From: Eledone cirrhosa
Lineage: Eukaryota
Assembly: GCA_964016885.1 (NCBI GenBank)
Contig: OZ024743.1
Location: 285,944,001 to 286,008,000 of the forward strand
Direction: 5' to 3'
Length of the DNA stretch: 64,000 bases
The stretch's first letter is position 1, and each line of letters opens with the position of its first letter. Shown here piece by piece: positions 1 to 46,855 of the stretch. A program made the translations under genes and the position numbers. The notes below the pieces were generated by a model that made no database searches, was not told the DNA's origin, and worked only from the letters and a program-made list of their open reading frames with translations.

Positions 1-1
1 T

Positions 2-379
2 CAAACTACAATTGCATGGCGTTGTGAAGTGGAGGGTTGCAAAGGACGGTTGAGTACCTCATTTGAATACGAAAAGGATAGAAATTGCACTGAGAAAGGA
101 ATACACTCGCATGCTCCCAAATCTGCTAAAGCTGGCATGGAAAAAGTTAAAGAAAAAGTCTGCAAACCTGCTGTAACAACGCATGAACCACCCAGAGGTA
201 TACTCCAAGATGCCATTGCTGGTTTACCAAACAAACTTGCAGCAAAGATAGGATCAGGAGCAAAATTAAAGCGTACCATATCTAGGAGGCGAAGAGCTAT
301 GAGGAACTACCCTCCACCCTCTCAATCAGCTGCATCCATCGTTATTCCTGAATCCCTGCGGTCTATTTTCACGGGCTAG
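2..379 (+). CDS. FLYWCH zinc-finger ORF of Mutator/MULE transposase type, 5'-incomplete; candidate first coding exon of BTB gene copy 1
   Basis: Frame is open from base 2: QTTIAWRCEVEGCKGRLST...GIHSH (W-R-C-x4-C...H-x-H), followed by a MULE-like linker LKRTISRRRR...YPPP...IVIPESL. No catalytic domain follows. CpGs are retained only to about 430. Confidence 0.7.
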   Translation, partial: QTTIAWRCEVEGCKGRLSTSFEYEKDRNCTEKGIHSHAPKSAKAGMEKVKEKVCKPAVTTHEPPRGILQDAIAGLPNKLAAKIGSGAKLKRTISRRRRAMRNYPPPSQSAASIVIPESLRSIFTG

Positions 380-399
380 TATATTTTTATTTTTATCGA

Positions 400-1200
400 C
401 TTCGCTCAAACGACTGGACACGCATTCATAGAGAGAGACCCTTTGTTGTCAACAGAGGCAGTAGCTCCCTCAACTTATCCTATCCTGTTCCTATTCTAGC
501 TACAATGCTCTCAGATCAACATGCACTGCTAATTAGGTCACCTAGGTAACAGAAGCTATTAACTACTTCTATGGAGCCTTCCTGGGATTAGAAAAAGTAC
601 ATTTCACCAATGCTCTTACTACCAACCATCCCTGTACATCTGTTACAAAGTCTACTTTTTTTTGTTGGGTGTGCCTTCTATCCCACTACATTTCTTGTGT
701 GCCCAATAGTTACATTGTGTGCATTATCTAGTTTCTATCCCTATTCCTACTTCCCTGGTGGGATCGTAGTTGTCATTTTTCCTGCATACTAAAACTTTCA
801 TTTACTTGAAACCCTCTTGATTCTAAATTTTATTTCCATAGCTGTAATTTATTCTCGGTCTCTTCCATAAATTCAGCAGTAAGAACCAGGCGGTTGATAT
901 AGCTAAGGAGCTATAGTAAATAGAAGCAGGCTGAAGACAACTCTAATGAACACCTACATACACATTGGATTCTTCATTAAACTTATTACTTACTTTCACT
1001 TTGCTGACAGAACCTCTGTATATGGCTTTCACAGCTCTCTAAACCTAGTTATGGACCACCAGATGACAGATAGTGGTACATTGTTTAGAGCAAAAGCTGC
1101 ATATACTGGCTTACACCTAGCTAAGAACTGTGCAAAGCTAAACTACATCTCAATTAATCAATAAATTATCAAATTTAACTTTTTGTTTCCTGCAATACAG
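400..1200 (-). mobile_element. Highly decayed RTE-clade LINE fragment
   Basis: ctgctaattaggtcacctaggtaacagaagct (about 526-557) matches the RTE copies at about 51187 and 62215; many stops; boundaries approximate. Confidence 0.6.
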
Positions 1201-1834
1201 CAAGAAAGGGGTCAGAGATGTCATTTTGAGTAAAGCCCTAGAGCAAAAACTCACAACCTGGGAGATGGGATATCTTCAGCAAGTTGCTGGTTAACCAGAA
1301 AGTCACTTGATAAGAATACCAAATGACCAACTGGCCTCAAGCTTATAACATCTTGCGTATGGGCTTGGAAACTGGAGGAAGGCCACATTGTGACTTAGTC
1401 ATAGGCACAGTACTACAAACCTCACAACTGCATATTTCATTTTCCAGCTACACCTTCCCAGTAGAAGCATTTGGACTAAAAAAATGTTAACTTTGTAATT
1501 AAAACAAAGCTTTACTGATTTTTATGGGGGAGGGGGGTCGTGGGCTGGGGGGGCAGTAAGGTTTGTTTGTCAGGCACAGTGTCACACAATCATTAGATTA
1601 AATAATACCACAGTTGGATGGCATGTATAACAATCTATACAACCAAATTTTTCATGCTTGCATAGTTTTGATGAAACTTTTTAAGGCTTGGTAACCTTGT
1701 TGGCATTTGTGAAACAGCTACATTACAAGACTGTTTATGGGAGGGGCATAAACTTTTTAGCAATTGTCCATTATAAAGATGTACATAGCAACTGACAAAC
1801 ACATACACTCATATATATATATATAATTATGCTG

Positions 1835-2030
1835 AACTGGTGTCACAACAAAAGCACCCAGTCCACACTAATGTGGTTGGCATTAGGAAGGGCAAACAGC
1901 TGTAGAAACCAAACCAAAATACAGATCTGTATGAGCATGATGTGAATCACTTGATCTGACTTGGCTCACGTGACAACCGGTCTGACCCATGTAGGCATAG
2001 AAAAATAGGCGTTAAATGGTGATGATGATA
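1835..2030 (+). mobile_element. 3' end of RTE LINE or RTE-tailed SINE
   Basis: aaagcacccagt...gtggttggcattaggaagggc...gctgtagaaacc...acccatg...gatgatgat; the same 3' module occurs at about 50000-50187, 54700-54886 and 57180-57416. Confidence 0.7.
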
Positions 2031-3128
2031 TAAACAAATTTCTAAGTATTGATTCATTAATCTGTCAGTATATTTGAATGATTAGGGCTTCCAACTCCCA
2101 AAATTTGCAAACTGGTTTGAGCTACACGAAGGTTTCTAAAAATAATTCTACTGTCAGCAACACTGCATGACAGCTAAAGCCAAGATGTCACTGATATTTG
2201 ACCAATTTGGACTTCCACTTGAGATGCATTTTGTAGCGTGCCGAGGGAAAATGAGAGAAAAAGACAAACTATAAATAATTTCTAATTCCCTGATGTTATA
2301 GAATTCATCACTATGAACTGCATTCTTAAAGGTCATGTTATATCAGCATACAAGGTGGACTTAATGCTTTTTGTTGTGGCAATGGCATTGTGGGAGTTCA
2401 GATGTAGAGTATGTGTGGGTTGGGGAGGTGGGGGCAAGTTCAACATTGACAAGATGGTGAGGGTGGAGTGACGAGAAGATTGGTCCAATCTAGTGTATCC
2501 TTTACTTGTTTGTTTCATTTCATTTTGTGCACATGGGAAGGCAGATTTTTTGCAGTACATCCTGATGCAGAGATATCAATCCTGTGTCATCTCCTTTGTA
2601 AAGTTTAATTGGGCATGATCAGATTTTATCATTTCATCCCTAACTTTCTTAGGTCCATCCTCTTCCATAGTTTCCATTCAACTTTGAGTTGCCTGCCCTT
2701 TTTAAACAGCTGTCATCCTCTATACACATTACATGTCCAAACCACTGCAATCTCCTCTCCTGTATACTGCATCTGACCCCTCTTATGCCTAGTTTCTCTC
2801 AGTCTATTGATGCTTTGTTATTCAATACAATGATGTTAGTTTAACTCTTGGTATTAAAGAAAAATAGTCTTAATGTTTTGAATGTTAGTCCTTCTTCAAA
2901 AGATAGAATGAAAAAGAAAGAAAATTTGACAGGAGAAAACCATTTTGAACTCATTCCAGCATTGAAAGACAGAAATAGGATGATTAGAATGGAATACAAG
3001 TGGAGCATGTGCAATGAATCATTTTTTTATTTCAACCTGTTAACTCCACACCCATATTTACATAAAATAGTAAACACTAATAAAAAGAATGTAATGATGT
3101 ACTTATATCTATTTTATTTTAATTTCAG

Positions 3129-6100
3129 GTTCTAATGAATATGACAAGATTCTTGAAACTCCATCTGAGCTCTATACATCTAATCAGCTTCCGGTAAAAA
3201 TTATTAAAATTTCTCATTTTCGCCCAGCTGGCTATGACAATAAGATCTCATTTAACTGGGAGTGGAAGACAAATAATGAACTGTAGACGATGATGGGAAG
3301 GAAACCAGTGATGAATGTTGTGAAAAGAAATGGAATGAGATGGTTGGGTCATGTCTTCAAGAAGAGTGAAATGAATGTGGAAGGAAATAGAAGGGGAGTA
3401 CCAAGAGAGACATGGCTAAAATGATGGAGGATAAAGAAAACCAGGGATTGGTGAGGTGTGGATGCAGACAATAGGGGGAAATAGAGAAGCTTGTCATGAG
3501 TTCATCAAGGCTAATCTCTGTTTTAGAAAAGATGGTCTTGAAACATTTGTATTTCCCCTAGCTCATATTAATTTTATTGGGATTTACTTTGAATGTCCAT
3601 GCCTTTCCCAATGGCATCAGCACAAAATAAACTAATGTTATTGAATATTAAATCTGATTGCCCTATACAATTGACTAAGGTGATTTTTTTTTTTTTCAAA
3701 AGGAGCTAGCAAAATATTTTAGAATTGCTAGTACACAATAAGTAAAAGTAGGAAATGCTTTCTGTACATAGGCTACATCCATTATAACGAGAGAAAAAGA
3801 ATTGATACTGATAGAGTTTTAATTGATTTTGTAAGATGTGTTGGAGCTTAGGAATTATCACTACCAACCTTGAATATACTTTTCAAATCTAATTTGTATA
3901 TATTATTCTTTGTAGGTAAAATCACAAGTGATTAAATCAGCCCATCAACAAAATCCCTCTTCATATTCTTTAAATAAATCTTCAGATGTGGAACATCGGA
4001 GGAAAAGTCTTTCTTCTTCAACATCTAAAATCATCAATAGCCTTTCAGATACAAACCAGTCCCAATCGTTTCCGACACCTGCAAAAGTTCCTAAAAAACA
4101 CAGTTTCTCTAAACCGTACGTAATTTCATCAGTTTTATAACTAATTCTTTAGTTTAAATCTCCTCTCTCCTTCTCTACATTTCTAGTTTCTATACTATTA
4201 TGCTATTAGAAAGTATTGTAGATGAGTAGAAGTTATTAAGTTGTTTTCTTCATGTCTAAATGAGTGATAATTTGTATCTTCTGTCATTATAGTGAGATGT
4301 GTTTCTGAACAAGACAATTAACACAATGACTCCACTACTTCACTAAATATTTGATAATAACAACAACACTAATACTTACAAATAGCAATTGTTGTAAAGA
4401 TGTTCTCCAGGAAACTGAGTTCATGATCAGTTTCAATTTGATTTTTTTCTATTCTCTTAAACTGATGTTCATGGCAAAGGTATCAGTATTGTACATCTAT
4501 AATCATAGGCTTCTGCCTACCTGAAGTCAACAAGCAATATTCCAGTATACCAAATGATGATATTAGCTGTTTGGATGTTCTCATTTTCAGCATTTTATTG
4601 TATATATAGTATTAAGAGGGATCCTCCATTAGCCTCAGTGTGGAGTATTCCAGTTGCTAATCAACATACTATATATTCATTGAATTATTGTGTGAGTGGT
4701 TGGGTATTCCATAGATAAGTTCTCTTAATGTAATACCCAAACAGAATCATCACAACTCAGTATATGGTATAATGCTGGCTATTTGAATTTCGAGTACAAG
4801 TTATAATATCTGTCTCAAAACTGATCTGTTTTACAATCTAGCACGAGTAAGATGGTTTCTATGAGAGCAATTATCATTATGGCTATGCCTATAATGCTAG
4901 CCACTCATCAGTGAATTCACGTGGACCCTTTAGTCAACCCACCAACTGTAGCAGAGTGAAATTTCTACTTACATACATGCAGAAACACTACACAGATGGT
5001 ATAATTTTTGGACTAGAAATAATTTCTATTTAGAGTTTATCCAAAATTCTCATACGATTCTCTTTGCTTTTTATAAAATATTTTTTGTGATAGGTATTAA
5101 AAATTATAAAAAGTGAAGTAATTTGATTTTGTCTACTTCTATTTGTTTTATTCATTTTTAATTCCATGAATTTTTTTTTTTTTTTTAAATCTTTTTTTTT
5201 TTCAGTTTTATTTCCCTTGGTCAATCTCATGTTTTGGAGAAACCAGCTACAGTTTCATCTTTCACTAATGATACTAGATCCCAGCCTATAGATTGCTCTA
5301 GTAGCTCTTCCAAAAATCACAGTTTTACTTCAAAAAATATTCAGAAACTATCAGCTGCTTCTAAATCAGAGAAACAGATGCGAATCAGTCCACCTATTGA
5401 TGTATCACCCCAAAAAGAGAAACGTATGCTTGTAGTACCAAACCATCAGTCATCTGTCATGTCTAACATGTCGTCCTTGTGGAAAGCCGGTCGGTTGTGT
5501 GATGCTTATATCAGCAATGGTGCAGTTAGTGTTATGGTAAGTTTGCGTTGTGACTGATTTTATAGTTTTAAATTTTTTTGTATGCAATAATCATAGGATG
5601 AAATTACTGAACAATGAAATATTTGTTTATTAGACTTTATTGCTTATTGCAGTGTACGGTATCAGTTTACAACTGGGTTAAATAGGCAACTCGTAAGAAA
5701 CAGTACACCAGTAGCAGCATACAAAACAATCATTTTGTTAGGAGACTAAATTAACTTAATTTGATACAGCTGCCTTAAGAATTCATTTTAAATTCAACTA
5801 GTTTGATATTGTTTTTTTTTGAATTTCCCAATATATTTTCTTAAAGTATGTAAGTGGTTCAGGAAAACATTCCAATAGCAAAAAATTATTTTTGCTCTAC
5901 AAAGTACCGTCAGTGGTGGAAAGTGGCACAAGTTAATCCAATGACCCACTCTTAGGTAAGAATTTTTAACATAAACAGGGTTCTACAATTTAGAAAAAGA
6001 TATAGTTGATTATATCAACCTTTGAAGTTGACTTCAGCTAGATTTTAATTCAAAATATAAAGGAATGTGACCAAATATCACAATACATTTTATGATACTC

Positions 6101-7260
6101 CACCTTCTAATAGCACATGTGATACCTGAAATTAAGACAAAAAGAATTAAATGGGAAATGTGCTTCTTGAAAAGATTTTTTTTTTTTTCTGTAACTAAAT
6201 TAGGGGAAGAAATTAGAATTAGTCAATCTTTACTTTTCAATCTATTAATTTTATTGATTTTCATTTGCAGGTTCATCAAATTGTTTTTGGAGCTGTTTGT
6301 CCCAAAGTGTTGCCTGTATTTTACAATAGTTTTCCTTCCGATTTACCAACAGTAACATTCCCTTCTACAGTCAGTGAAGAAGCTCTATTAGCTTTTTGTG
6401 AATACATGTACGATGGTGTGCTGGAACTAGATAAAAATATCCTGTCTCAATTGAAAATTATTGCCAAGTGTCTTGATATGCAGGGTTTTGATCAACTCTG
6501 TAACAACCAGCTAAAATTTGCAGAAAATTCAGTAACAGTGCCATCAGATATGTTGGAGTCAATACTTGCTGAGCCTTGCTCTTCATCAGGACTTATCTCA
6601 GACAGTAGTACAAATACACAAATTGCATGCCAAGATAATTTCATCCCTGTTTCTCAAATAATTCCACACAAACTTATCAATCAATACAAGCGTAATCTTG
6701 AGGAAAGTTCCAGTGGACTTTCACACAAATTTCCAACAGAGATAAAAAGGAAATCAGTGAAACAGGAATTTTGTGATACCAACATTGAAGATGGTGATGT
6801 TAACAGTAACCATGACGATAACTTAATTAACAAACCACAGATTAAAGTAGAACTGATTGGTCCAGATGATCATCGATATGGATACCAGGATATTTTTTCC
6901 ACACAACAGGGTTCAGACCCTTCTGATGCTGATATAACTCAGTCAAGCTTGCTTTCTCATAATACAGCCCTGGATAGCTTTGAGCAGAGTATGGACATAC
7001 AGCAGGCTGAACAATCTTTACAATCATCTTCATCCCTCTCTCCTCTTTATTCTCTTCACTCAGAATCTCATCCAGTTGGCTACCTAACTCCTACATCAGT
7101 TCGTAGACTAGTAAGTTGTGATAAATTCCAAAATAGGAAAAACTCTGAAAATCCTAAGCCTTATCCTGTTAGTTTCTTCAGTGCAAATGATGAGCCAATA
7201 TCTTTATCTTCATCCAATCTACAGTTAGCATATGTCAAAAAAAAGCATATGGCTAGATGA
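3129..7260 (+). CDS. BTB/POZ-domain protein, tandem copy 1 (exons 3129-3193, 3916-4115, 5206-5536, 6271-7260; 5' exon upstream)
   Basis: All introns are GT-AG with matching phases (1-0-2-0). The spliced product contains NHQSSVMSNMSSLWKAGRLCDAYI...VM|VHQIVFGAVCP...VSEEALLAFCEYMYDGVLEL...LKIIAKCLDMQGFDQLC, a canonical BTB fold. Every exon is conserved in copy 2. Confidence 0.88.
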
Positions 7261-7975
7261 CACCAAGGATTACTTGCAGTGGTTTTCATTTCAACAGAAC
7301 ATCATAAACAGATACAGCTAATTTTCTCCTTTTTTTTGTGTTAGGTATAGTATATTTATCTTGTTGCAACTAAGACACTGTTGCATAAGATAAATGTTGG
7401 TTACACGGATGGATATTTTTGTTTGTCTAAATGTAGAGAATATCCAACACAAATAGCTTGCAGAGTGAGCATTAAGCTATCTGTTTCCTGAATTTCTTGT
7501 ACCTTATCCAAGAGGAAATCGTTAATATTTGTCTCTGTTGATTCTCTTGTTGAGAAAAGATGACGTTATTTTTCCATAATTGTAAATATTTTAGAATGGA
7601 AAATATTATAATCAGGGAGTTAAAAAGCAATTCACATTGAATTTATTAAATCATGTATAAAGCATGAAAAACTAATATTCCTTCAGATGGAAAACTCTTT
7701 TTTTTATTTAAATGACAGAAGTATGTCAAGGCAAACATTAATACATGCATAAAAGACATTTTTGAGAAAATTTTGTTTGTTTGTTTTTTGTAGGTAAGAC
7801 ACATCTTGGTTCTTAAAGGTTGATGTTTTAGTTCTGGTTTCATGACATTAAGTGGGTTAGATAAATCTTCTGGATAGGGCGCCCATCCATTGCAAGTAAT
7901 ATTTACAGAAGATGAGGTACTGCTAATTCTTGACAGATCAGCAAACTAGAGCATGTAATCTTATATTATGAACAT

Positions 7976-8172: not shown

Positions 8173-9796
8173 TATCCCTTTTGAGATTTTCTTCCTTTGG
8201 AAAAAAAATCGATCCCAACATCTCCTCTTTTGAGATTTACTTCCGTCAGAAGCTTAATATTTTTTCCGCTTCGGGACTACTTCCAACAATTCCGTCTGCT
8301 TTCTTTTTCTTGTGGAGTTGGCACATCGAATATGTCATAGAGTACTTCCATAGGTACTTCTTTTCTTGTACCCTTTTCTTCAGCCAACCATAGTTTTAGC
8401 TCATTAATGTACCTTTTGTGTTCCCATTTCGAACCTTGCACCATGTATGTCATTTTACAGATCGTTTTTTTTTTTATTACACCGTCTTCCCAACCTTCCT
8501 TTCCATTCCTGTATACTATGAAAAACACCTTATCCCCCAGGTTTGAAATATTTGAACGTAATATTGGTGTTTCTCCAAGTCTTTATTTTATGTCCCGGCA
8601 ATAGTTTATCAAAAACTAACCTAATTTTTCTGGCAATCATCAGTTTAGCAAGCGACATGCCTGAAACGGTATTAGGGTTTGGCATTACTCATTAAGCACT
8701 CAGGAATTATTGTAACGATACCTCCTCTGCTTCCTCATGGTTTAATTTTATTAGCGCCCCTTTGAACGTGTCCTCAAAGCATTCAGCTTGTCCGTTCGAT
8801 CTTGGGTGATACAGTCAATTGTGAACATTTTGCAAAATTTCTTGAATTCACTGTTACCATAGAGGTCGGTCTTCTACATTTACAAATCTCTGGCCATTTT
8901 GTAAAACTGTCCGCAACTACTAGATAATATGATCCATTTAATGTTCCTACAAAATCTATGTGTAACCTGGTCCATAGAATGTCAGTCTTGGGCCAAGGTT
9001 GAAATTTTGTAAGTGGTGATTTTGCTTCAAAAGCACAGCCTTTGCAGGATTTTACTAACTTCTCGATATCTAGGTCCATTTCTGGCCAGTAAACATAACT
9101 CCTCGTGATTGACTTCATCCTAGGAATTCATGGATGCCCAGTGTGGAAATCATTTAACATTCATTTTTGTAGTGAAACGGGCATTACCACTCTCTGTGCA
9201 TACATAAGCACATAATCAAATAAGAGTTCAAATCCGTGTTATATCCAGCAACAGGTTTTTTTTTTTTTTTTCTTCCGATCTCACTATTTTTTTCATTTTA
9301 ATAATAAACTCATCCTTTTCTGCCTTAATTTTTATTTCCTCCAATGTGACGGGCAATTCTCACACAGTGTTGCATAGTATACTTTTTATTTCGTTTTTTG
9401 GCTCTTAAAGCTGCGATCACCGTGTCTTCTAGTGGATGGTTTGTCAAGATTAATATTTTGGTATTAATCTTGACAAACCATCCACATGTCCCAATTTTTT
9501 AAATGGCAAAATACTCCATCTTGAAGTCATAATCTTGCTATGATCTGTTGGTTGTATGAATGGAAATACCCCTTTTTTTAACCATGGATCAACAATAATG
9601 AGCAGTGGTCTGTTTGTAAGCGGAATTTTCTTCCGCAAATATGATGGTTTAATGCTTCCTTCTCTATCTGATTGTAATTTTTTTCAGCTGGCAATAAGGA
9701 CTGCAAAGCATGAGCTACAGCTTTTAAACTTCCATCTTCATATTTATGTAAAATCACAGCACCTATACCACTTTCGTGAAGGCGCATGGTTTAGTG

Positions 9797-11066
9797 CAGA
9801 GGTTGGCAACCCCCGGCCCGCCTAAGACTTAGACTAAATGATCCATGAAAAAGTACTTTGAATTATTTTGGATTAGAATACCAACTAGAGAACACGTATA
9901 GCCACATAACTAACTTAGCTGAACGTAATTTTTTGCATGACATTAACAAACAATCAAACTCAGAGAGTATCTCATTACATAATTGACCATTTCTGTCTGT
10001 TTTATTTGTAGAAAGAAATATCATTAAAGTAATCTATCTATATATTACTAAAAGTCTGTGATTGCTTGCTTGCTTGTCTGTAATGTAATACAGCCAAAAC
10101 GGCACATAATTGGAAAATAATTTGAAAGAAAGTTGCCCCTGAAATGGGAATACCAATGGAATAAAACAAGTTTTGCGTAAATCAGACCACAGGTTCCCGA
10201 GATATGGGGTTTTCTGGGTACCTTCATAAACAGAGAGAGAAAACTAGTGGTTGTGAGAGAGTAGATTGAAGGAGAATGGAAGAGAGCTGGTGGTGGTGTT
10301 GTGTATATAGATCACACACACACATTTATATATATAGATGGGCCTTCCAGTTTCATTTCACATTATATACATGTCTGTCTATATTTTAATTATTTTAAAA
10401 TTATTTTTAAGTGAACATGATTTTTAAAACATATTTTGAAGTGAATGTGACCCAACGGGTCATTGGTGGTCGAGTATAATACTAAAACTCTGATTGCTTG
10501 CTTGTCTTTAAATTTAATAGCCAAAAGGGCGCATAATGGGAAAATACTTTGAAAGGAAGTTGCCCCTGAAATGGGAATACCAATGGAATAAAACAAGTTT
10601 TGCATAAATCGGACCACGGGTTCCCGAGATATGTGGTTTTTCCTGGTACCGTCATAAACAGAGAGAGCTGGTGGGGTTGTGCGTGTGTCTCTATGACCAG
10701 TGTATATAGATAACAGACAGCCACATATATATATATATATATGGGCCTTCCAGTTTCATTTCATATATACATGTCTATGTATATTTTAATTATTTAAAAA
10801 TTACTTTGAAGCGAACGTGACCCAGCGGGTCACGAGTGGTCAAGTATCACATAAAATTCATTGGTCTTTAATCCCGGGATAAAGGTAGCCTTTTGGACAG
10901 AGCAGTTTGAGGTCAAGCAAATTTATTATATTTTGATATAACCCACTGACGAGATACTGCATACCTTTGAGGCCCGCCAACGAGACACTGTATAGCTATG
11001 TGACCCGCCAACAAGACACTGTATAGCAATGAGGCCCGCACACCCCTAAAAGGTTGCCGACCCCTG
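9797..11066. mobile_element. Non-autonomous hAT DNA transposon
   Basis: TIRs cagaggttggcaacc / ggttgccgacccctg; 8-bp TSD gtttagtg (9789-9796) / gcttagtg (11067-11074); ggcccgc subterminal repeats. Confidence 0.85.
10033..10844 (+). mobile_element. Head-to-tail dimer of a non-autonomous Helitron-like element
   Basis: Two similar units (10033-10474 and 10475-10844). The first starts tctatctatatattactaaaa; each ends with a hairpin gtgaccc..cgggtca and a CTAG-like terminus (cgag/caag)+t. Confidence 0.7.
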
Positions 11067-12049
11067 GCTTAGTGGTTAGAGCATTGGGCTTGCAATCGGA
11101 AGGTTGTGAGTTTGATTCTCTGACTGAGTAATACATTGTGTCCTGGTGCAAGACACTATTTCACTTTGTTCCAGTTTATTCAGCTGTAGAAATGAGTTGC
11201 AACGTCACTAGTGTCAAGCTGTATTGGCTATTGCCTTTCCCTTGGACATCATCGGTGGCGTGGAGAGGGGAGGCTGGTACGCATGGTAACTGCTGGTCTT
11301 CGACAAACAACTTTGCCCGGACTTGTGCCTCGGAGGGAAACTTTCTAGGTGCAAATCCCGTGGTCATTCATGACCGAAGGAGGTCTTTACCCCACTTTCA
11401 CTTGCATCTGATGCCACAACACTTTCTAATTTGGGTCAAAATGTGATAATGACAAATCTGACGTTAGGATCCTTTTAATTTCCTCAAAAGCTTTTTGGCA
11501 CTTCTCCGACCAGTTCCATTTAACATCTTTTTTTAACAAGTTATTAGAGGTCCTCTCAAATCATGCATATTTAGTATGTATACCTGGTAGTAATTTGCGA
11601 GCCCTAAAAATGCTTGTAACGTTTTAATGTTTTTGGGGGCAGGCATATTTTTTATTGCACTCAACCTTAATGGGTCTTGTCTACGTCCGTTTTCGTTGAT
11701 AATTTGCCCCAGATATTTTATTCTTCACATAAAAAATTCACATTTTCATCACTGAGCGTACTTTAATTTTTTCAGCATGCTGACCTCAAGATGCACTTTT
11801 TATGAGTATATCATCGAAGTAAGCCATTGAGAAATCCGAACCTGTAACCATAGTGTCCATAATTTGTTGAAAAATAGCTGGTGCAACTTTTATACCAAAA
11901 GGGAGGCAATTAAATTTATACAATCCTTTATGAGTGTCGATCCTAATAATTTTGAACATTCCTCAACTTGTACCTGAAGATATTCCTTGGATAGGTCCAA
12001 CTTTGAAAAATAATTTTCCTCCATTTAATTTTGTGAAAATTTCTTCGAC

Positions 12050-12835
12050 ATGGTACGTGGCACATTGAAAAAAAAAATGCTGGTCCGCCACAGATAGTTT
12101 GAGAAGCACTGCACTACAGGACAGATCTTAACACTCACACACACATGTACCAGACTTCTGTACAGTCACTGCCAACCAAACCATTTAAGGCCCTAGTAAA
12201 AGGGATTTGGAAAAAGAGTCACCCCAAAATCACATAGTAATGAAGTGAACTCCTTAATGCAGTCAGGTCTGTGGCTACAGGTACACATAAACAGATTTAT
12301 ATACTCACACAAAAATGTATATGGAAATATACACATACACAATCAAATGCATATATGCATATATGTACATATACATATATAGCTATGTATATATTTGACT
12401 GGTGTTGATGTAAAACTTGAAATATATGTGTGTATGTGTGTGTAGGTATATATATGTAGATACACATGATATATACACACATATATACATATATAGAGGC
12501 ACATGGCTTAGTAGTTAGAGCATTGGCCTTCAATCGAAGGGTTGTGTTGTTTCCTTGAGCAAGACACTTTATTTCACATTGCTCCAGTTTACTCAGCTGT
12601 AGAAATGAGATGATAGGGACTGGGGTCCCTATCATTCCACTGCAAAGTGGTCGTGTAGGTGCCACGGCAAAAAAGCACCCAGCACTCACTGTAAATGAGG
12701 TTGGTATTAGGAAGGGCATCCAGCTGTAGAAATCAAGCCAGAATCAGTTCCCGTCCCACCCTTGCAAGCAGGGAAAAGCGGACGTAAAATGATGATGCAC
12801 ATATATAGATTTATAAACATATACATACACACATA
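12050..12835. mobile_element. Composite insertion in the Gypsy RT: hAT-like end, TA/CA microsatellite, SINE head with RTE-type 3' tail
   Basis: tttgagaagcactg end at about 12111; ggcacatggcttagtagttagagc SINE head at about 12498; RTE 3' module at about 12640-12797; Gypsy RT frame resumes at about 12836. Confidence 0.6.
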
Positions 12836-14091
12836 TATCAAGCATTCATTTAAACCTGTTGAAAAATCGGCACATACAGAGGAATTTTTTTTTTTTTTGA
12901 CATAAACTGTTGGGGATGCCCATTCACTGTAATCAATTTTTTTCAATAACCCCTAGCTTTTCAAGTCTATCCAATTCATTAACTTATTCCAACACTGTGA
13001 AAGGTACACTCCTTTTTTGGTTTGAATACTGGTATAGCATATTCCTTTACAGAAAAAAACTTTTGGAAAACCCTTTTTTAATTCTTTTTTTATTTTTTCC
13101 GATGCTGGATGAAAAATATTCACTTTTTTACAAAAAAGTTTATGGGGAGGTTCCATAAATCAAATAATCCCATCCAGTCTGTTCGTATTACTGAGCACAA
13201 AAACTTTTGCTTTTAAGTTTTACCACAAAACAAAACATCACTTGTCATTTCTCCCTTAAAATGCAACTTTTTTCCACGTGTGATTTTTTAAGTTACTTTT
13301 AAGCTGGTCTTCCTGATTTTTCTCCATGTCTCCTCGTTAATTATTGTGATGTCACTGCCCGTATCCAATTGTAACTTGACATTTATTTTCACAAACACAA
13401 ATTTTCTTTTCTCGCTTAGATTTTTTTTTTACACAACCTCGTTGACAGAATTTTTACTGTTCAACCTTTTTTTCTTTTGGTTCCCTCTATAATGCAAGGT
13501 TTTATGTCCAACTTTTCCACATTCATAACATTTTAAATTTTTGTAAGGACAGTCACTTTTAAAATGTAAGCCTCCGCACCCGTAACAACATGGATTGGGT
13601 CTTCACAATTGTTGTTTTTCTTTTTTCTCATCCATTCTAGGTCGAACCAAATGCATTTGTGAACAATCTCTTTCGTCAATGTTTTCTGTATCATGCCTTA
13701 AGTTTACAATCCTCTGGCATTCTTCTGCCACTGTCTGAAGTGTCAATTTTTGGTCTTGTTCTAACTTTAATATCCAGGAACGTATTTCTGCATCTTTGTT
13801 AGAGTCAGCCCTTGTACAAAAATTAGACATTTGAACATGTTTGGGGTTAATTCAGTTAATTTGAACTTTTCACATTCTCTATTTACAACCCCAGCATAAG
13901 TGACAAAATCTTTTTCACCAAATTTAAACACTGCCAGCGAGTATTGAACATTGAACTTCTTTCACTGAAAAGTTTTGATAAAATTTTGTTTCATCAAAAC
14001 AAATTTCACCTGGCTTCTTTAGCAGAATAAAATTACTTTCGTGCAAAAATAATCCACAGGCCAGCGCAAGCTTCGAATACCTCGTTGCCAC

Positions 14092-14295
14092 CTTTATAAC
14101 CTTTTGGACTGGTTATATTTTCTACGATGCAGCGGTACTAACAAACAATTTTATGTCAGGTATCCCGTCCAACTACAAAATAATGAGACTTTCAAGAGAG
14201 ACTCCAATCAAACTACTGACAAAAAGACATGTTGCTTATTTATAATAATCCACTGAGTCCATTTCTTTAATCCCAAAGGGGTGTTCACCATAACA
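14092..14295 (-). repeat. 5' LTR of the Gypsy element
   Basis: Direct repeat of 7976-8172, adjacent to the PBS. Confidence 0.9.
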
Positions 14296-14379
14296 AATAT
14301 ATAAGCAAATTCATTTCAGCAGATTCCTACTCTCAGTCTGCAAGTTCTTCAGCTAGCCATTTAGATATCTGCCATCTTT

Positions 14380-17019: not shown

Positions 17020-17542
17020 ATGGAAAACAAAGCGAAAAAAAGGCGACAGTTTTTGTTACAGGAAAAGTTGGAAATTCTGAAAGCCGTTGATTCTGGAAAA
17101 AAAAAGAAAGACATTGCGTTACTGTTTAACATTACTCCGTCGACATTGTCCACGATTGTTAAGAATCAGTCTAAAGTTAAAGAGAAATCTAAAGAGGCAA
17201 ATTTTGGTCCACAACGAAAACGCCTAAGGGCTGCGATGTTCGAAGATATTGACGAGGCAGTTTTTGTGTGGTTTACAAACCAAAGAGAACAAAATATGCC
17301 AATTAGTGGTCCGCTTATTCAAGAGAAAGCTTTGGATACGGCCAAACTTTTGGGTCACTCGGATTTTCAGGCCAGTGTCGGATGGCTGAATCGATTTCGT
17401 CATCGATTCGGGATAACATCCCGAGGGATCTGTGCTGAAGAAGCTGATGTTCCAATAGAAAAGCTGATTCGGTGGAAAGAAGCAGAAATAAAAAATATTA
17501 TTTCTTACAGCAAAGAAGGCATATTTAATGCAGATGAGACGG
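17020..17542 (+). CDS. Tigger/TIGD-type transposase N-terminus (HTH-psq/CENP-B_N + HTH_Tnp_Tc5); candidate alternative first exon A of BTB copy 2 (unspliced ORF runs to 17655)
   Basis: KRRQFLLQEKLEILKAVDSG...PSTLSTIVKN...DIDEAVFVWF...PISGPLIQEKA...FQASVGWLNRFRHRFGI...IFNADETG. Homology ends at the first catalytic Asp motif, where a phase-1 donor ACGG|GTATTT lies. Confidence 0.85.
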
Positions 17543-18894: not shown

Positions 18895-19375
18895 ATGGCG
18901 CCAACACTTACACGAAGGAAATATGAAGCTGGGTTTAAGTTGAATGTTATAGCATATGCAAAGAAGCATAATAACCGTGCTGCTGCGCGTGAGTATGGTG
19001 TAACGGAGAAAGTAGTAAGAGACTGGAGATTAAAAGAAGAAATATTAAAGAATATCCCCAAGAGCAAATGTGCAATGAGAAGGGGTAGTGCACACTGGCC
19101 GAATTTAGAGAATTATTTAGCAGATATAGTTTGTGAGTATCGACAAAATGGATATGGTTTATCAAGAAGTAAAATCCGCATTATGGCACTCCAGTGGGCA
19201 AAAGAAAATCAAGAGTATTGTAAAGACTTCAAGGCCACCGCTTCATGGTGTCGTCGATTCATGGAGAGACATAATTTAGTATTGAGGCCGAAAACCAAAG
19301 TAGAGAAGAAATTACCGACAGAGCTTGACATCAGTATTTCTAATTCCCATCGTTGTATAATACTGCAACATAAAA
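18895..19375 (+). CDS. pogo/POGK-type transposase N-terminus (Brinker DBD + CENP-B-type HTH); candidate alternative first exon B of BTB copy 2 (unspliced ORF runs to 19422)
   Basis: RRKYEAGFKLNVIAYAKKHNNRAAAREYGVTEKVVRDWR...WPNLE...FKATASWCRRFMERHNLVLR...KLP; no DDE domain; good start context atcATGG; phase-1 donor AAAA|GTAATG. Confidence 0.85.
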
Positions 19376-20620: not shown

Positions 20621-21257
20621 AGCGAGTTTGCTTTAGGGGAGTGAGGTGGGTGATGAATGTAGAGCAACAGAGAAGGCTCGAAAGAGCGGGGAGGTGAATG
20701 GCGTATCAATCAGAAAGAGGGAGACAAACAATAAATTGTAGAATATGATGGAAATAGTCACGAGTTGAAGAAGGATAAAAGTTACTGACTGAGTGAGCGG
20801 AGTGATGAAAATGAATGTGGAACGAAATAAAGAAAGAGGAAGACCATGGCTAAAGTTGATGAAGAAGGAAATGAAAGTGACATGTCTTTTTCGAAATATC
20901 CACATAACAAGAGTGACTCGTACAAGACATGGACGTGAAGCCTCTTGCAGAAAGTTATTGCCTATCATACTCCAAGTAATCAAATAGTGGTGATTAAGAC
21001 ACCCTTTGTCATGCAATTTTCGAAAGCATCTTATGTGAGTTCCAAGGAACAACTCTGTCTTGCACCTTACTCATCACTGTTGAATACAATTGAGGGACCC
21101 TGAAGTGTGATTAAGCCAATTTATTATCTAAATTGTAAGCAAGTGATCTAGGAAATATATTATTGAAATCTAAATGGAGAGATTAATAGATGAAAGTGTA
21201 ACAGCCATAGCACCTATTGAATCATTTTGACTGGAAGTGTTATTTCCATCACAGATT

Positions 21258-23190: not shown

Positions 23191-26100
23191 GTTCTAATAT
23201 TTATGACAAGATTCTTGAAACCACATCTGAGCTCAATACATCTAATTCGTTATCGGTAAAAATTATTAAAATTTATCTTATTTTTACACACTATTGAGAA
23301 TTGCATTTGGCTATAAGAATAAGATCTCACCTAACTGACAAATTATTTAATCTTTATCTATAAAAACGAAAATGTCTGTCTGTATGCAGGCAATGCATTT
23401 TCAGTTTCCATCCAATTTTGTTCAAATTTGATATATAATTTAACTCCTGGAGCATGTCAACAAATAGTTTAAATCTTGCTCTCCCCTAAAATTGTAGAGT
23501 TCTGGGGCTCTTTAAGGGTAGCCATATTGAGGAGAGAGGAGTAGGGTGGGGTCTTTATTGACAGTGGAGGAAGACAGATGAGCTAGCAATGTTAGAAAAA
23601 TACAGACAGGGTGAGGCAGGTCTTTATTGACTGGTGAATGTAGAGGATGAGAGAAAACAAGACAGACAGAATATCAGTTCAAGTAGTAACTACAGCTATA
23701 GAGTAGCTATATAAAAGTGGCAGTGTTGGTGGAAGAAAGCCATGGTAGCAGTAAGAGTACAGACAACAGTGACAAGAGTAAGGCGTGTGACGTCATAAGA
23801 CATCTGCTGCAGTAATGTAATGGTAGAAAAATGTACAAGTTTCTAATTTGAGTTAAGTTTGATTTATTTCTGTCATTTAATGGCAGATTTATGACAATAA
23901 TTAAATATAAATTAACATGGAATCTCTACATTTTATTTTGTCTCTCTCGGAAAACTATTTCCATGTGAAAAGAAAGGTTTAATGTGTCGTCTGCTTTACA
24001 ACAATCAATACATTTATTGTGTAATGTTGAATACTTACAGCTTTTCTTCTACCTTAATTCGGTTATTCACTTTATTTTAATAAGGTGTACCCGGCAACAA
24101 CGGCGTTTTTTGCTAGTTATATATATATTTATGTATATATATATATTATTCATTGTAGGTCAAATCACAAGCCAATAAATCAGCCCATCAACAAACTCCT
24201 TCAGATGTGGAACATCGGCGGAAAAGTCTTTCTTCTTCAACATCTAAAATCATCAATAGCCTTTCAGATACAAACCAGTCCCAATCATTTCCAACACCTG
24301 CAAAAGTTCCTAAAAAACACAGTTTCTCTAAACCGTACGTAATTTCATCAGTTTTATAACTAATTCTTTAGTTTAAATCTCCTCTCTCCTTCTCTACATT
24401 TCTAGTTTCTATACTATTATGCTATTAGAAAGTATTGTAGATGAGTAGAAGTTATTAAGTTGTTTTCTTCATGTCTAAATGAGTGATAATTTGTATCTTC
24501 TGTCATTATAGTGAGATGTGTTTCTGAACAAGACAATTAACACAATGACTCCACTACTTCACTAAATATTTGATAATAATAACAACACTAATACTTACAA
24601 ATAGCAATTGTTGTAAAGATGTTCTCCAGGAAACTGAGTTCATGATCAGTTTCAATTTGATTTTTTCTATTCTCTTAAACTGATGATGTTCATGGCAAAG
24701 GTATCAGTATTGCACCTCTATAATCATAGGCTTCTGTCAACAAGCAATATTCCAGTATACCAAATGATGATGTTCCATCATATAGCAGGCTATGTTTAGG
24801 ACTGACTATACGAAGAGAGATGTGTTTTTGAACAAGCAGGTTTACTGTTTCCTTATTTGCTTTACTGATTAACTGTTGAGAATTTTCTTTTTTCAGGATT
24901 TTATTATAAATTAGTAAAATATGAAAAGGAGTGCTCTGTTTTAACATGGAGTATTCTAGTTGTTTAATCAACAAGCTATCTATTCATTGAATTATAATGT
25001 AAGTACCTGAGTGTACTACAAACACTTGTACTCTTAATGTAATCCTCCAGCAGAATCAACACAGTAATGCTGGCCCTTTGAATTACAATACAGTCCATTC
25101 CATATTTTCCATCCACCCAATTTCACTCAAGATTTGAGTTAACCCAAAACTAGTGTTACAGACACTTGGCTAAGATACTTAGAAAGCAATTTATTAATCA
25201 GCTCTGGATTTAACATATACACACTTAGACCAACAAGCAATGTCTCAAAGTATTCGTTCGTATAAATGCAATCCAATATTTATTTAGAACTATTTACTGA
25301 ATCAGTGAGACTTACTATATGAAGATCAGACTGTAGTGATACAGGTAATGACTTCTTGGCACTAATGAGATTAATCTAAAAGCAAGTATGATTAATTTAG
25401 AATATTGTTAGCATAATTATTACCGTTTGTTTTTATAACTTTTCAGTTATGAATTATATCTCATTTTGTGGTATAAATTTTTCAATACAAAATTATATCT
25501 ACCTTGAAGTGCTAACATCTCAAAATTATGTTTTTTTATTTCTACTTTCTTCAATAACTGCAATATATCAAATATATGCAATATACTGCAATATATCAAA
25601 TATATCTCGTTGATCTGCTGTCTTATTTATTATTACATATCTTGATACAACAAAATCTTTTTAAATGAGTTATAATTTCTATTTAGAGTTTATCAAATTT
25701 TCTCATCAGATTCTCTTTGCTATGTATTATTAAAATGTTTTTTGGATCGATGCAAAACATTAAAAGTAAAGTTGTTTGATTTTGTCCCACTTTGTTTTCG
25801 TTTTTAATTCAATAACATTTTTTTTTTTTAGTTTTATTTCCCTTGGTCAATCTCATGTTTTGGACAAACCAGCTACTGTTTCATCTTTGACTAATGATAC
25901 TAGATCCCAGTCTATAGAAGGCTCTAGTAGTTCTTCCAAAAATACTCAGAAACCACCAGCTGCTTCTAAATCTGAGAAACATATGCGAATCAGTCCAGCT
26001 ATTGATGCATCACCCCAAGAAGAAAAACGTATGCTTGTAGTACCAAACCATCAGTCATCTGTCATGTCTAACATGTCATTTCTAAGGAAAGCTGGTCGAT

Positions 26101-28867
26101 TATGTGATGCTTATATCACCAATGGTACAGTTAGTGTTATGGTAAGTTAGCATTCTGACTGTATATGTAGATTTTTATTATCTTATATGCAAGAATGACA
26201 GTATTTCTAACTCCGTAGTACTAGTTGGGTAAATTTAAAACTGATTGGTTTTACTTTTGTAGAAGTTATAAGATAATTGAAGCAAAGATGGGAATAACAA
26301 TGAGTGGAAGGATTCATGAAATGTGAAGACAATGTACTCTAAACATTGCAGTAATGTAATTGTTTCATGGTGTTGGTTGACCTTGGATCATTATTAAGTG
26401 GTTAATAATTGTTTCTACTTTTGGCACAAGGCCAGAAATTACCCAGTGCATTACCGGTACTTTATTTTATCGACCCCATAAGGATGAAAGGCAAAGTTAA
26501 CCTCGACGGGATTTGAACTCAGACCGTAAAGGGACGTAACTATGCTGGAAAGCATGGCGTCCAATACTACCAATTCACCACCCTCAGTGGTTAATAATTG
26601 TTTCTACTTTTGGCACAAGGCCAGAAATTACCCAGTACATTACTGGTACTTTATTTTATCGACCCCGTAAGGATGAAAGGCAAAGTTGACTTCGGCGGGA
26701 TTTGAACTCAGGATGGAAAGGGCCGTAACTCTATGCGTCAAAGCATGACGTCCGACCCTCTACCGATACTGCCATAATAATTGTTTCTACTTTAGGCACA
26801 AGGCCAGCAATGACCCAGTACATTACTGGTACTTTATTTTATCGACCCCGTAAGGATGAAAGGCAAAGTTAACCTCGGCGGGATTTGAACTCAGACTGTA
26901 AAGGGACGTAACTATGCTAGAAAGCATGGCGTCCGACCCTCTACCCATACTGCCATAATAATGGCAACTTGTTAGACCAGCCTGCTTCTTTCTAATGTAT
27001 TTCTACTGGTGGATGATATTCCTCCTGTTAAAAGATGGAACTGTTATGGAGACATAAACTTGCTATATACACTTGCAATAAAATCCTCATCAAACATCAA
27101 CTACATCATAAGTATTTTCAAGTGTATAAACATTCTATTCCAATACTGACAACAAATGATGGAGAACAGTGGGATCTTTCAGTAGTCAATAATTATGGGT
27201 TAAACATACTGAAGAACAAAAATATTTGCATATTAGGCTTTGCCATGTACTGTATCAGTTTACAGCAGGGTTAAATGGACAACTACAAAAAACAGCATAC
27301 AAAACTATCATAGGTGGAAAGATGAAGGTGATGGTGAGATGGAAAAAACAGGAAGAGTGTTGGCATGAAGGGATTATTAAATAGTGTGGTAGCTACATTT
27401 AAACTGTAAATTGTATATGGAGGGAGTTAGGGAATGGTATTAAGAGGGAAGGTGTGAAAATGATTTGTTACCTTGGAGAAGGTAGATTGAAATTGTTAAC
27501 AGAATCTAGAGTGGGTTGTATATGGAAGAAATTCTAGGATCTGATTGATATACTAATGAGAGAAATGTTGCTGAAACTGAAAGAAAAGGTGTATGCTATA
27601 TGTGTGAGAAGTGCTGTGATTTATGGTGGTTAGAAAGAACAGAAATGAGAATGGTCTGGTGGATAAGTGAAGTATTGCTGAGAGAGAAGACAAACAGTGA
27701 ATTACAGAGGGATAATGGGAATATAACCCGTGATGGATGTCATGAAGAGGAATGAGATGGTTGGGTCATATGTTGAAGGATGAAAATGAATGTGGAAGGA
27801 AGTAGAAGAGGAAAACCAAGAAAGACGGCTTTAAAATGCTTGTTTGTTGTAACTAAGTTAAGGGAAAAAATTGGAATTAATTAATCTTCGATTTTCATTT
27901 GCAGGTTCATCAAATTGTTTTTGGAGCTGTTTGTCCCAAAGTGTTGCCTATATTTTACAACTCTTTTCAATCTGCTTTACCTGCTGTAACATTCCCTTCC
28001 ACAGTCAGTGAAGAAGCACTATTAGCTTTTTGTGAATACATGTACGATGGTGTACTGGAACTAGATAAAAATATCCTGTCTCAATTGAAAATTATTGCCC
28101 AGTGTCTTGATATGCAGGGTTTTGATCAACTCTGTAACAACCAGCTAAAATTAACAGAAAATTCAGTATCAGTGCCATCAGATATGTCAATAGTTGAGCC
28201 TTGTTCTTCGTCAAGACTAATCTCAGACAGTAGTACAAACACACAAATTGCAAGCCAAGATAATTTCACCCCTGTTTCTCAAGTAATTCCTAACAAGCGT
28301 AATCTTGAGGAAAGTTCCAGTGAACTTTCACACAAATTTCCAACAGAGATAAAAAGGAAACTTATGGAACAAGAAATCTGTGATACCAACAATGAAGATG
28401 ATGATGCTAACAGTAACCATGAAGATAACTTAATTAACAAACCACAGATTAAAGTAGAATTGATTGGTCCAGATGATCATCGATATGGATACCAGGATAT
28501 TTTTTCCACACAACAGGGTTCAGACCCTTCTGATGCTGATATAACTCAGTCAAGCTTGCTTTCTCATAATACAGCTCTGGATAGCTTTGAGCAGAGTATG
28601 GTCATACAGCAGGCTGAACAAGCTTTACAATCATCTTCATCCCTCTCTCCTCATTATTCTCTTCACTCAGAATCTCATCCAGTTGGCTACCTAACTTCTA
28701 CATCAGTTCGTAGAATAGTAAGTTGTGATAAATTCCAAAATATGAAAATCTCAGAAAATCCAAAGCCTTATCCTGTTAATTTGTTCAGTGCAATCGGTGA
28801 GTCATTATCTTTATCTTCATCCAATGTACAGTTGGATGAAGATACAGATAGTGGCACTGTAACCTAG
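23191..28867 (+). CDS. BTB/POZ-domain protein, tandem copy 2 (exons 23191-23255, 24159-24334, 25832-26141, 27905-28867; first exon probably 17020-17542 and/or 18895-19375)
   Basis: Same exon phases as copy 1, GT-AG introns, intact BTB domain. Exon length differences versus copy 1 are multiples of 3 (24 and 21 nt in the middle exons). Confidence 0.88.
23351..24116 (+). mobile_element. Non-autonomous Helitron in an intron of BTB copy 2
   Basis: 5' a|TCtttatctataaaaacgaaaatgtctgtctgt; 3' cccggcaacaacggcg...tgCTAG|t; absent from the equivalent intron of copy 1. Confidence 0.7.
26403..26955 (-). mobile_element. Three head-to-tail tRNA-derived SINEs of about 180 bp each
   Basis: Units about 26403-26585, 26592-26773 and 26775-26955. 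On -, A-box-like tggcagtatcggtag, B box gagttcaaatccc, core ctttgcctttcatccttacggggtcgataaaataaagtacc, and (tta)n tail. Confidence 0.85.
27310..27835 (+). mobile_element. Old RTE LINE fragment in an intron
   Basis: Vestiges of LKGKVY..CVRSAVIYG, ERTEMRMV.W, RWLGH and RRGKPRKT; a similar piece lies at about 3270-3500. Confidence 0.6.
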
Positions 28868-46285: not shown

Positions 46286-46635
46286 TGTAACAGACAAGAT
46301 TGTTTTGGCGTTTTTAGAAATTGATAATTGAAGATACTTTTTAGTAAGATTTGGGCAAGTTTAGTAAAATCACAGGCTAGTAAAAGTTTGAAAAAGTCCT
46401 TGTCGAGTCAATAAAATTTCCAAGATTACAGAATTTGAAACTTTCCAAAGAATTATGACATAAAAAAATGAGACGTAAGAAAGTTAATAAAAGTATGAGA
46501 CAGCCTCAACACAAACAGATTTTTTTTCTGTCTGACTCAATGAATGTGTGACGTCATGTTTACATTTCTTACCCTCTTCCTGGCGGCATTAGCTATAACC
46601 ACCACCATTCTGGAGGACAGTGGAAAATTCTCACG
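46286..46635. promoter_or_regulatory. Probable bidirectional promoter between GSKIP and the THAP exon
   Basis: Divergent start codons 350 bp apart; TGACTCA at 46533-46539 and palindromic CRE TGACGTCA at 46549-46556; CpGs retained. Confidence 0.55.
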
Positions 46636-46855
46636 ATGGTTAATTTTTGTGCTGTTAATGGCTGTTCCAGTCGTGCAGATCGCGATAGAGCTAACTCATT
46701 TTACCGTTTGCCAGCCATCATTACTAATCAAGGAGAAGAAACTCGAGAAAGATCGCGAAAACGTCGCGAACAATGGATAGCTAATATTAATCGGCCAGAT
46801 TTGAAAGAGACCAGTTATGCATATGTCCGAGTGTGCTCAGATCATTTCATATCCG
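46636..46855 (+). CDS. THAP-domain first coding exon; remainder of gene not identified in the window
   Basis: MVNFCAVNGC...SFYRLP...RREQWIANINR...VRVCSDHFISG is a complete C2CH THAP signature; strong phase-1 donor CCG|GTAAGA. Confidence 0.88.

What the first reader, a model, noticed from the sequence alone, without database searches (positions are those of the whole stretch)
2..7260. The paralogous BTB copy appears to use a third captured DNA-binding domain, a Mutator-type FLYWCH finger
Seen: copy 1 also begins at a phase-1 acceptor (3129). The only intact protein-like ORF upstream in the window is a FLYWCH/MULE N-terminal ORF open from base 2 to 376, with CpGs retained as in the other candidate first exons. 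Possible phase-1 donors are AGAG|GTATAC after 197 and a GC-type ACGG|GCTAGT after 374; neither is certain. Inference: after duplication the two BTB genes took DBD exons from different transposon superfamilies. FLYWCH+BTB would parallel mod(mdg4) in reverse order, and more alternative exons may lie left of the window.
Basis: partly seen in the sequence, partly recalled or inferred. Interest (0 to 1): 0.75.

Follow-up and report, generated by a model that had tools for sequence, protein, structure and literature searches.

The report
Transposon fragment upstream of octopod BTB
This octopus-relative gene belongs to a family that joins many interchangeable transposon-derived DNA-binding front ends to one shared protein core, but the particular Mutator transposon piece flagged here looks more like a young broken insertion than a proven new front end.

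Summary
The sequence facts hold: an open frame at 2-376, a phase-1 acceptor at 3129, and a four-exon BTB gene duplicated in tandem. The frame is residues 27-151 of a Mutator (FLYWCH+MULE) transposase, 81% identical to a full-length one, cut before the catalytic domain. Splicing to 3129 is not shown. Both donors are chance-level, CpG is half that of the likely first exons (pogo, Tigger, THAP), and 0 of 10 orthologous isoforms from four octopods carry FLYWCH.

The post-duplication story fails. The Octopus orthologue is one gene with CG-1, THAP, pogo and Tc1/mariner front ends on this same acceptor, and copy 2's pogo exon is inherited.

The larger idea is right. Paralogues in octopods and a cuttlefish cluster carry alternative transposon-type N-termini, FLYWCH among them, on constant BTB cores, a reversed mod(mdg4)-like layout. 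A 2023 paper tabulates Octopus BTB-FLYWCH proteins; I found no description of the alternative-first-exon system. The scan noted an analogous piggyBac-BTB case in an arthropod.

Odds: intronic young Mutator relic 0.6, real lineage-specific capture 0.3.

The parts
2..376 (+). 5' part of a Mutator (FLYWCH+MULE) transposase, residues 27-151; start codon predicted about 78 bases left of the window; cut before the catalytic domain
   Evidence: 81% identity over 125 aa to full-length P0006; relatives hit FLYWCH and MULE
195..203 (+). candidate phase-1 donor GAG|GTATAC; the -1 G lies in a codon that reads Gly where the relatives have Arg (Lys in one)
   Evidence: chance-level
372..380 (+). candidate phase-1 GC donor CGG|GCTAGT at the truncation point
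406..889 (-). old LINE fragment, antisense; no CpG in 427-748
   Evidence: 65-69% DNA match to the LINE near 59000-59500
3129..3193 (+). copy 1 first constant exon; phase-1 acceptor shared by all variable N-termini in the orthologue
3916..4115 (+). copy 1 constant exon 2 (linker)
5206..5536 (+). copy 1 constant exon 3 (linker and N-terminal part of BTB)
6271..7260 (+). copy 1 last coding exon (rest of BTB, tail, stop)
   Evidence: 84% to Octopus LOC115209547; BTB in orthologues
17020..17542 (+). Tigger/CENP-B-type DNA-binding ORF with candidate phase-1 donor; no orthologue among 124 proteins held (best 33%)
18895..19375 (+). pogo (BrkDBD+Tc5) variable first exon of copy 2, donor AAA|GTAATG; inherited, not newly captured
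   Evidence: 83% over 160 aa to O. vulgaris P0012
20909..21215 (+). decayed relic (stops, frameshifts) resembling the Tc1/mariner DDE cassette of the Octopus orthologue
   Evidence: collinear with P0013 residues 244-361, E 6e-10
23191..28867 (+). copy 2 constant exons 23191-23255, 24159-24334, 25832-26141, 27905-28867
46636..46855 (+). THAP exon with phase-1 donor, probably a first exon of the next BTB family member
   Evidence: 82% to the N-terminus of P0029 (THAP+CG-1+BTB)

Best explanation
The gene is a member of a cephalopod BTB family built like a cassette. Several transposon-derived DNA-binding first exons each end in phase 1 and splice to one shared acceptor, followed by constant linker-BTB-tail exons (shown for the orthologue as database gene models; acceptor and phase shown here). 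In this lineage the 3' part of the gene was duplicated in tandem. Copy 2 kept the inherited pogo exon and lost the DDE cassette to decay. Copy 1 most likely still uses the ancestral CG-1, THAP, pogo and DDE exons left of the window (inferred). The FLYWCH ORF is a younger Mutator insertion in sense orientation in the last variable-region intron of copy 1, cut at its 3' end, roughly 5% diverged from its source and part-way through CpG loss. It is raw material of the kind this family captures, but probably not an established exon (inferred). For the family, the likely working mode is that the captured domain gives sequence specificity and BTB dimerises and recruits partners (inferred from KRAB-transposase fusions and ZBTB proteins; untested).
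For: Closest relatives are free transposases at 65-81%; BTB-fused FLYWCH exons match at only 27-40% over 44-91 residues (one 16-residue match at 62%), and the tree puts the ORF among the 7 free copies (support 82/81, unstarred). 0 of 10 orthologous proteins from O. vulgaris, O. sinensis, O. bimaculoides and Argonauta carry FLYWCH. No cephalopod-named protein among 9 hits of the ORF (4 of 260 and 5 of 12 candidates); names seen are two shrimps. The ORF has 12 private changes at conserved columns against 1-10 in seven relatives, mean BLOSUM -0.58, inside the neutral range. The changes are no rarer in the finger (7 before codon 66, 5 from it on). CpG is at relic level and does not extend downstream. 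Donors are chance-level. An open frame is not surprising: probability of no stop about 0.5, or 0.04-0.27 with assumed indel rates.
Against: The ORF is in sense orientation, 2.75 kb before an acceptor that takes transposon exons. It keeps the four zinc ligands, has no stop or frameshift, and ends before the catalytic domain. Exon sizes of 91 or 150 aa bracket the 97-142 aa unique N-termini of the captured FLYWCH isoforms for which a junction could be placed. FLYWCH capture has happened repeatedly in paralogues. Real donors of this gene are also weak (e.g. ACC|GTACGT, AAA|GTAATG, 5/9 like the 197 site), and the private Arg-to-Gly change puts G at -1 of the 197 donor. The BLOSUM test does not discriminate: the true pogo exon scores -0.19. 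CpG is above the intron level (P 0.002) and only borderline below the pogo exon (P 0.056). A lineage-specific capture would be absent from Octopus by definition. 8 of the 9 transposase hits are unnamed and could include cephalopods.
Confidence: 0.6

Rival explanations
1. The ORF is a recent, lineage-specific captured first exon: its own promoter and ATG just left of the window, a phase-1 donor (most likely after 197), spliced to 3129 to give FLYWCH-linker-BTB. It is added to, not replacing, the ancestral CG-1/THAP/pogo/DDE exons.
For: Orientation, position, intact ligands and frame, cut before the catalytic domain; repeated FLYWCH capture in paralogues; weak native donors; the Arg-to-Gly change at the donor; young fusions typically arise as alternative isoforms with transposon-supplied splice sites (10.1101/2020.05.07.082677, passages).
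Against: No FLYWCH in 10 orthologous isoforms; neutral-looking changes inside the finger; lower CpG and no CpG-rich domain behind it; donors at chance level; in the vertebrate cases 8 of 9 captured sites were acceptors, not donors.
Confidence: 0.3
2. Intermediate state: the fragment is spliced to 3129 at low frequency, as a minor or noisy isoform or an internal cassette, without selection on the protein.
For: Any sense insertion with a phase-1 GT upstream of this acceptor gives an in-frame fusion, and such sites are common (88% of shuffles). The orthologue also uses a transposase as an internal cassette (CG-1+DDE, THAP+DDE).
Against: No junction was obtained; nothing distinguishes this from the relic reading without reads.
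Confidence: 0.1

Closest known systems
Octopus LOC115209547 / LOC106872006 (orthologue; GenBank, RefSeq and UniRef models)
   Same: Same four constant exons (84% in the last exon) and the same phase-1 junction; pogo exon shared.
   Different: One constant region there, tandem duplicate here; its annotated N-termini are CG-1, THAP, pogo and Tc1/mariner DDE, none FLYWCH.
Cephalopod BTB paralogues LOC115220336/LOC106879774 and LOC115209904
   Same: FLYWCH N-terminal to BTB as alternative first exons: three different FLYWCH N-termini, one HTH-like (judged by eye, no Pfam hit) and one DUF3504 in the first gene; FLYWCH or CENP-B in the second. Two LOC106879774 entries are tabulated as 'BTB-FLYWCH' in PMC10027918 supplementary Table 1.
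   Different: Their fingers are 27-40% identical to this ORF, so not orthologous; they are far from the free transposases I hold, whereas this ORF is 81% identical to one.
Drosophila mod(mdg4) and lola
   Same: One constant BTB part with many interchangeable DNA-binding exons, FLYWCH in most mod(mdg4) isoforms (PMC4667647, passages).
   Different: There BTB is N-terminal and of the arthropod TTK type, variable exons are 3', arose by duplication of one domain type and are partly trans-spliced. Here variable exons are 5', come from several transposon superfamilies, and the BTB lacks FxLRWN.
Host-transposase fusions (KRABINER, SETMAR, CSB-PGBD3)
   Same: Transposase DNA-binding domain joined by alternative splicing to a host regulatory domain (10.1101/2020.05.07.082677, passages).
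   Different: Those are mostly single captures through an acceptor upstream of the transposase; here several captures feed one host acceptor through donors. 'BTB' does not occur in that preprint's main text.
FLYWCH+MULE Mutator transposons
   Same: Residues 27-151 at 65-81% identity to full-length and partial members.
   Different: Catalytic domain missing; inverted repeats and target duplication could not be examined.

Membership tests
Mutator (FLYWCH+MULE) transposase-derived sequence | Homology to FLYWCH+MULE transposases with W-x-C..C..H-x-H finger | tested here: met
   81% to P0006, which hits PF04500 and PF10551; ligands kept
Autonomous Mutator element | Catalytic MULE domain in the same element | tested here: not met
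   tblastn of the full transposase matches only 2-376 in the window
Mutator element (any) | Terminal inverted repeats and target-site duplication | not testable with these tools
   5' end lies left of the window, no genome held; bases 371-440 match none of 80 distant MULE loci above background
Host-transposase fusion | Spliced transcript joining the transposase exon in frame to host exons | tested here: inconclusive
   No raw RNA reads were available and no junction into 3129 was listed
Host-transposase fusion | Conserved in related species or under purifying selection | tested here: inconclusive
   Absent from 10 of 10 orthologous isoforms of four other octopods; substitution pattern neutral-like but the test does not separate it from the true pogo exon; no DNA of close relatives for dN/dS
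Cephalopod variable-N-terminus BTB family (gene as a whole) | Constant linker-BTB-tail exons with a shared phase-1 acceptor and alternative transposon-type first exons | tested here: met
   Orthologue with four N-termini on 524 identical residues; pogo exon present in the window
mod(mdg4) | N-terminal BTB, variable C-terminal FLYWCH | tested here: not met
   BTB is internal and the variable part is N-terminal
mod(mdg4) | TTK-type BTB with FxLRWN motif | tested here: not met
   No such motif before the BTB in the translation; PMC11426971 found none in Mollusca (passages); best solved BTB match is ZBTB9
mod(mdg4) | Trans-splicing of variable exons | not testable with these tools
   All candidate exons in the window are on the same strand and upstream of an acceptor, so cis-splicing suffices

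The most novel reading that the evidence does not exclude
Coleoid cephalopods have a clustered BTB gene family that works as a standing trap for transposase DNA-binding domains. A shared phase-1 acceptor lets any sense DNA-transposon insertion become a new first exon, giving a combinatorial set of BTB transcription factors (THAP, CG-1, pogo/CENP-B, Tc1/mariner, FLYWCH, FAR1/ZSWIM3-N, STPR, DUF3504) that may target the cognate transposons, an invertebrate counterpart of KRAB-transposase fusions. This Mutator fragment would be its youngest capture, still 81% identical to a full-length transposase. The family architecture is well supported by database models; the probability given is for the whole statement including this ORF being spliced.
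Probability: 0.25. Interest if true: 0.85.

Novelty: new variant of a known kind. Interest (0 to 1): 0.6.

Why it matters
The flagged fragment alone is probably an ordinary transposon relic. The gene family behind it is the valuable part. Single cephalopod BTB genes carry up to five alternative transposon-type DNA-binding front ends, from several superfamilies, and the layout recurs in at least eight constant regions, including one protein cluster with cuttlefish members. That is convergent with mod(mdg4)/lola and with KRAB-transposase capture. It makes two questions testable in cephalopods: how new transcription-factor specificities arise, and whether they police transposons. This locus adds a recent duplication, a decayed cassette and two lineage-restricted candidates (FLYWCH, Tigger), so gain and loss of front ends can be studied directly.

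Tried and rejected
1. Whole genome: none held, so the upstream 20-50 kb and the copy number of the Mutator family could not be read.

2. RNA: no RNA holder listed (4 runs, 1 study, kind not on record). All four were laid as contigs. X4 has listed pieces in the constant exons (5209-5449, 6489-6746, 6817-6968, 7060-7300) and also in introns (e.g. 3433-3594, 5587-5774); it has no cover at 1-244 and no joint into 3129 among those shown (44 joints not shown). Contigs cannot show absence, so this is no evidence. X1-X3 each have a contig over 48-553 with no differences, bridging the truncation at 376; they may be the assembly's own sample.

3. DNA of close transposase relatives for dN/dS and TIRs: nothing in metagenomes with the N-terminal alignment, only distant MULEs at 24-42% with the full-length one (80 of 83 kept), nothing in viral contigs.

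4. Idea that 377-426 is the element's 3' inverted repeat: not supported. The motif occurs once in the window, matches no MULE locus above background, and LINE homology reaches back to about 406.

5. BLOSUM test of decay: not discriminating (3 of 11 rows left out as near-duplicate, frameshifted or short).

6. DNA homology between 1-3128 and copy 2's upstream region: no collinear match beyond 3063-3128; the other short hits are scattered and look like repeats.

7. Solved-structure search with the transposase alignment: no match.

8. No structure or complex prediction was run; it would not decide splicing.
Full report
WHAT IS THERE. The window holds two tandem copies of a four-exon BTB gene on the + strand: copy 1 at 3129-3193, 3916-4115, 5206-5536, 6271-7260 and copy 2 at 23191-23255, 24159-24334, 25832-26141, 27905-28867, all with canonical sites and consistent phases. 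The last exon is 84% identical to Octopus LOC115209547/LOC106872006 and 67% to Argonauta (5 hits among 5682 candidates), so the source is an octopod other than those species (inference). The two copies group together against Octopus and Argonauta (100/99). One intron stretch is 96% alike and two downstream stretches 78-79%, so gene conversion may have helped, and the date of the duplication is soft. Downstream homology runs to about 15896/30552.

THE ORTHOLOGUE CHANGES THE STORY. Ten of the 124 proteins held carry this gene's first constant exon. Their N-termini are CG-1, THAP, pogo BrkDBD+Tc5, a Tc1/mariner DDE_3 transposase, and CG-1+DDE or THAP+DDE (Pfam on 9 of the 10). The four O. vulgaris proteins share 524 identical C-terminal residues, so they are one gene. 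The residue at the junction is always R, G or S, as a phase-1 join into GT predicts. The window's exon at 18895-19375 is 83% identical over 160 of 160 residues to the O. vulgaris pogo N-terminus and ends at the matching donor AAA|GTAATG. A decayed relic resembling the DDE cassette lies at 20909-21215. A multi-superfamily set of first exons therefore existed before the duplication, and 'each copy captured its own domain afterwards' is not supported. These isoforms are database gene models; I did not see their read support.

THE FLYWCH ORF. It is open from 2 to 376. It is residues 27-151 of a 468-aa FLYWCH+MULE transposase at 81%; nine relatives were found, 65-81% identical, named only in two shrimps. 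Convincing homology ends at 376 (one weaker alignment runs on to 430), and an old antisense LINE fragment begins near 406-427.

For exon status: sense orientation; position before a permissive acceptor; zinc ligands kept; catalytic domain gone; plausible exon size; native donors equally weak; and a private Arg-to-Gly change that supplies the -1 G of the 197 site.

Against: 0 of 10 orthologous isoforms have FLYWCH. It sits among free transposases, not among captured fingers (27-40% identity). It has 12 private changes at conserved columns, neutral-like and no rarer in the finger, although this test also scores the true pogo exon as neutral-like. CpG o/e is 0.53, like the retroelement relics (0.43-0.72) and below the pogo, Tigger and THAP exons (0.89-1.34), with no CpG-rich domain behind it. 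A donor this good appears in 88% of shuffles. About 5% divergence leaves a 125-codon frame stop-free about half the time, or 4-27% with assumed indel rates. No junction evidence was obtained either way. I put a young intronic relic at 0.6, a real lineage-specific capture at 0.3 and a minor unselected isoform at 0.1.

THE FAMILY. A search of 1.84 billion representatives with the last exon gave 45 proteins. Pfam on 29 of them (3 more had been scanned) and on 32 cluster members shows THAP, CG-1, CENP-B/Tc5, STPR, FLYWCH, FAR1/ZSWIM3-N and DUF3504 in front of the BTB. Names, where given, are Octopus, Argonauta and Sepia pharaonis; many O. vulgaris accessions are close to the orthologue's and share its contig length, which points to a cluster. 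Different N-termini on a shared constant part are seen in LOC115220336/LOC106879774 (three FLYWCH, one HTH-like by eye, DUF3504), LOC115209904 (FLYWCH or CENP-B), a cluster with cuttlefish members (THAP or FLYWCH), P0029/P0074 (THAP or ZSWIM3-N, 99% alike downstream), P0028/P0124, P0031/P0033 and P0040/P0041 (the last pair across two species). Two unnamed FLYWCH+BTB proteins are whole frames on contigs of 2.6-2.8 kb; since the BTB is split by an intron in this window's gene, these are probably spliced transcripts (inference). The THAP exon at 46636 is 82% identical to P0029's start and probably opens the next member.

HOW IT LIKELY WORKS. Shown: shared phase-1 acceptor, variable N-termini in models, BTB core. 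Inferred: each first exon has its own CpG-rich promoter region (CpG pattern). A sense DNA-transposon insertion with any phase-1 GT yields an in-frame fusion, which explains repeated capture. The captured domain would bind its cognate terminal repeats or derived sites while BTB dimerises and recruits cofactors, by analogy with KRAB-transposase fusions (10.1101/2020.05.07.082677, passages) and with ZBTB proteins (best solved BTB match ZBTB9). None of this function is tested.

WHAT IS KNOWN. PMC10027918 (passages and a search of its 5 supplements) notes that Octopus THAP and CENP-B proteins carry BTB and tabulates two BTB-FLYWCH entries for LOC106879774. Its main text has no 'isoform' or 'alternative', and the bimaculoides orthologue's identifiers were not found in its supplements. 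mod(mdg4) has an N-terminal BTB and variable 3' FLYWCH exons (PMC4667647, passages) of the arthropod TTK type, not found in molluscs (PMC11426971, passages). PMC12062965 (passages) does not mention molluscs; its supplementary fusion table, which I did not open, could list these proteins, and the bioRxiv preprint's supplements were not seen. Four searches aimed at this system and two background searches found no description of the alternative-first-exon arrangement in cephalopods; the library lacks most subscription papers. An earlier scan note (e1-7594875) reports an analogous piggyBac-derived last exon on an arthropod BTB gene; I did not check it.

VERDICT. Observation partly confirmed; the specific interpretation is unproven for FLYWCH and wrong on timing; the surrounding system is real and under-described. 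New variant of a known kind, interest 0.6.

Noticed in passing
window 17020-17542 (+): Tigger/CENP-B ORF in a CpG-rich domain ends at the start of the catalytic region with a phase-1 GG|GTATTT; it has no orthologue among the 124 proteins held, so it is a better candidate for a lineage-specific capture than the FLYWCH ORF.
   Followed up: partly
window 20909-21215 (+): Decayed relic resembling the Tc1/mariner DDE cassette that is an open frame in Octopus isoforms; possible loss of a variable exon after duplication.
   Followed up: partly
window 46636-46855 (+): THAP exon head-to-head with a single-frame GSKIP gene (45893-46290, - strand), probably sharing a promoter; 82% to the start of a THAP+CG-1+BTB protein whose other exons are not in the window.
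   Followed up: partly
window 3960-4564 vs 24200-24774: Second constant exon and the following intron are far more alike between the copies (96% in the intron) than other non-coding stretches (78-79%), suggesting gene conversion.
   Followed up: partly
window 28820-28867: Copy 2 has replaced the basic C-terminal tail kept in copy 1 and Octopus, and its last exon has a longer branch (0.15 against 0.056).
   Followed up: no
proteins P0031 and P0033: Two Octopus proteins share middle exons but differ at both ends (CENP-B or STPR in front, different last exons), hinting at variable first and last exons in one locus.
   Followed up: no
proteins P0006-P0009, P0018, P0025: The Mutator family is 65-81% identical between this octopod and records that include palaemonid shrimps, which suggests horizontal transfer; most records are unnamed.
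   Followed up: no
window 8600-14300 (-) and 30700-64000: Fragments that look like a Gypsy-type LTR element between the copies and many LINE fragments in the right half (identified from translations by eye, not by a library search).
   Followed up: no
window 26390-26960: About three tandem copies of a CpG-rich SINE-like element inside copy 2's last intron (seen by eye).
   Followed up: no
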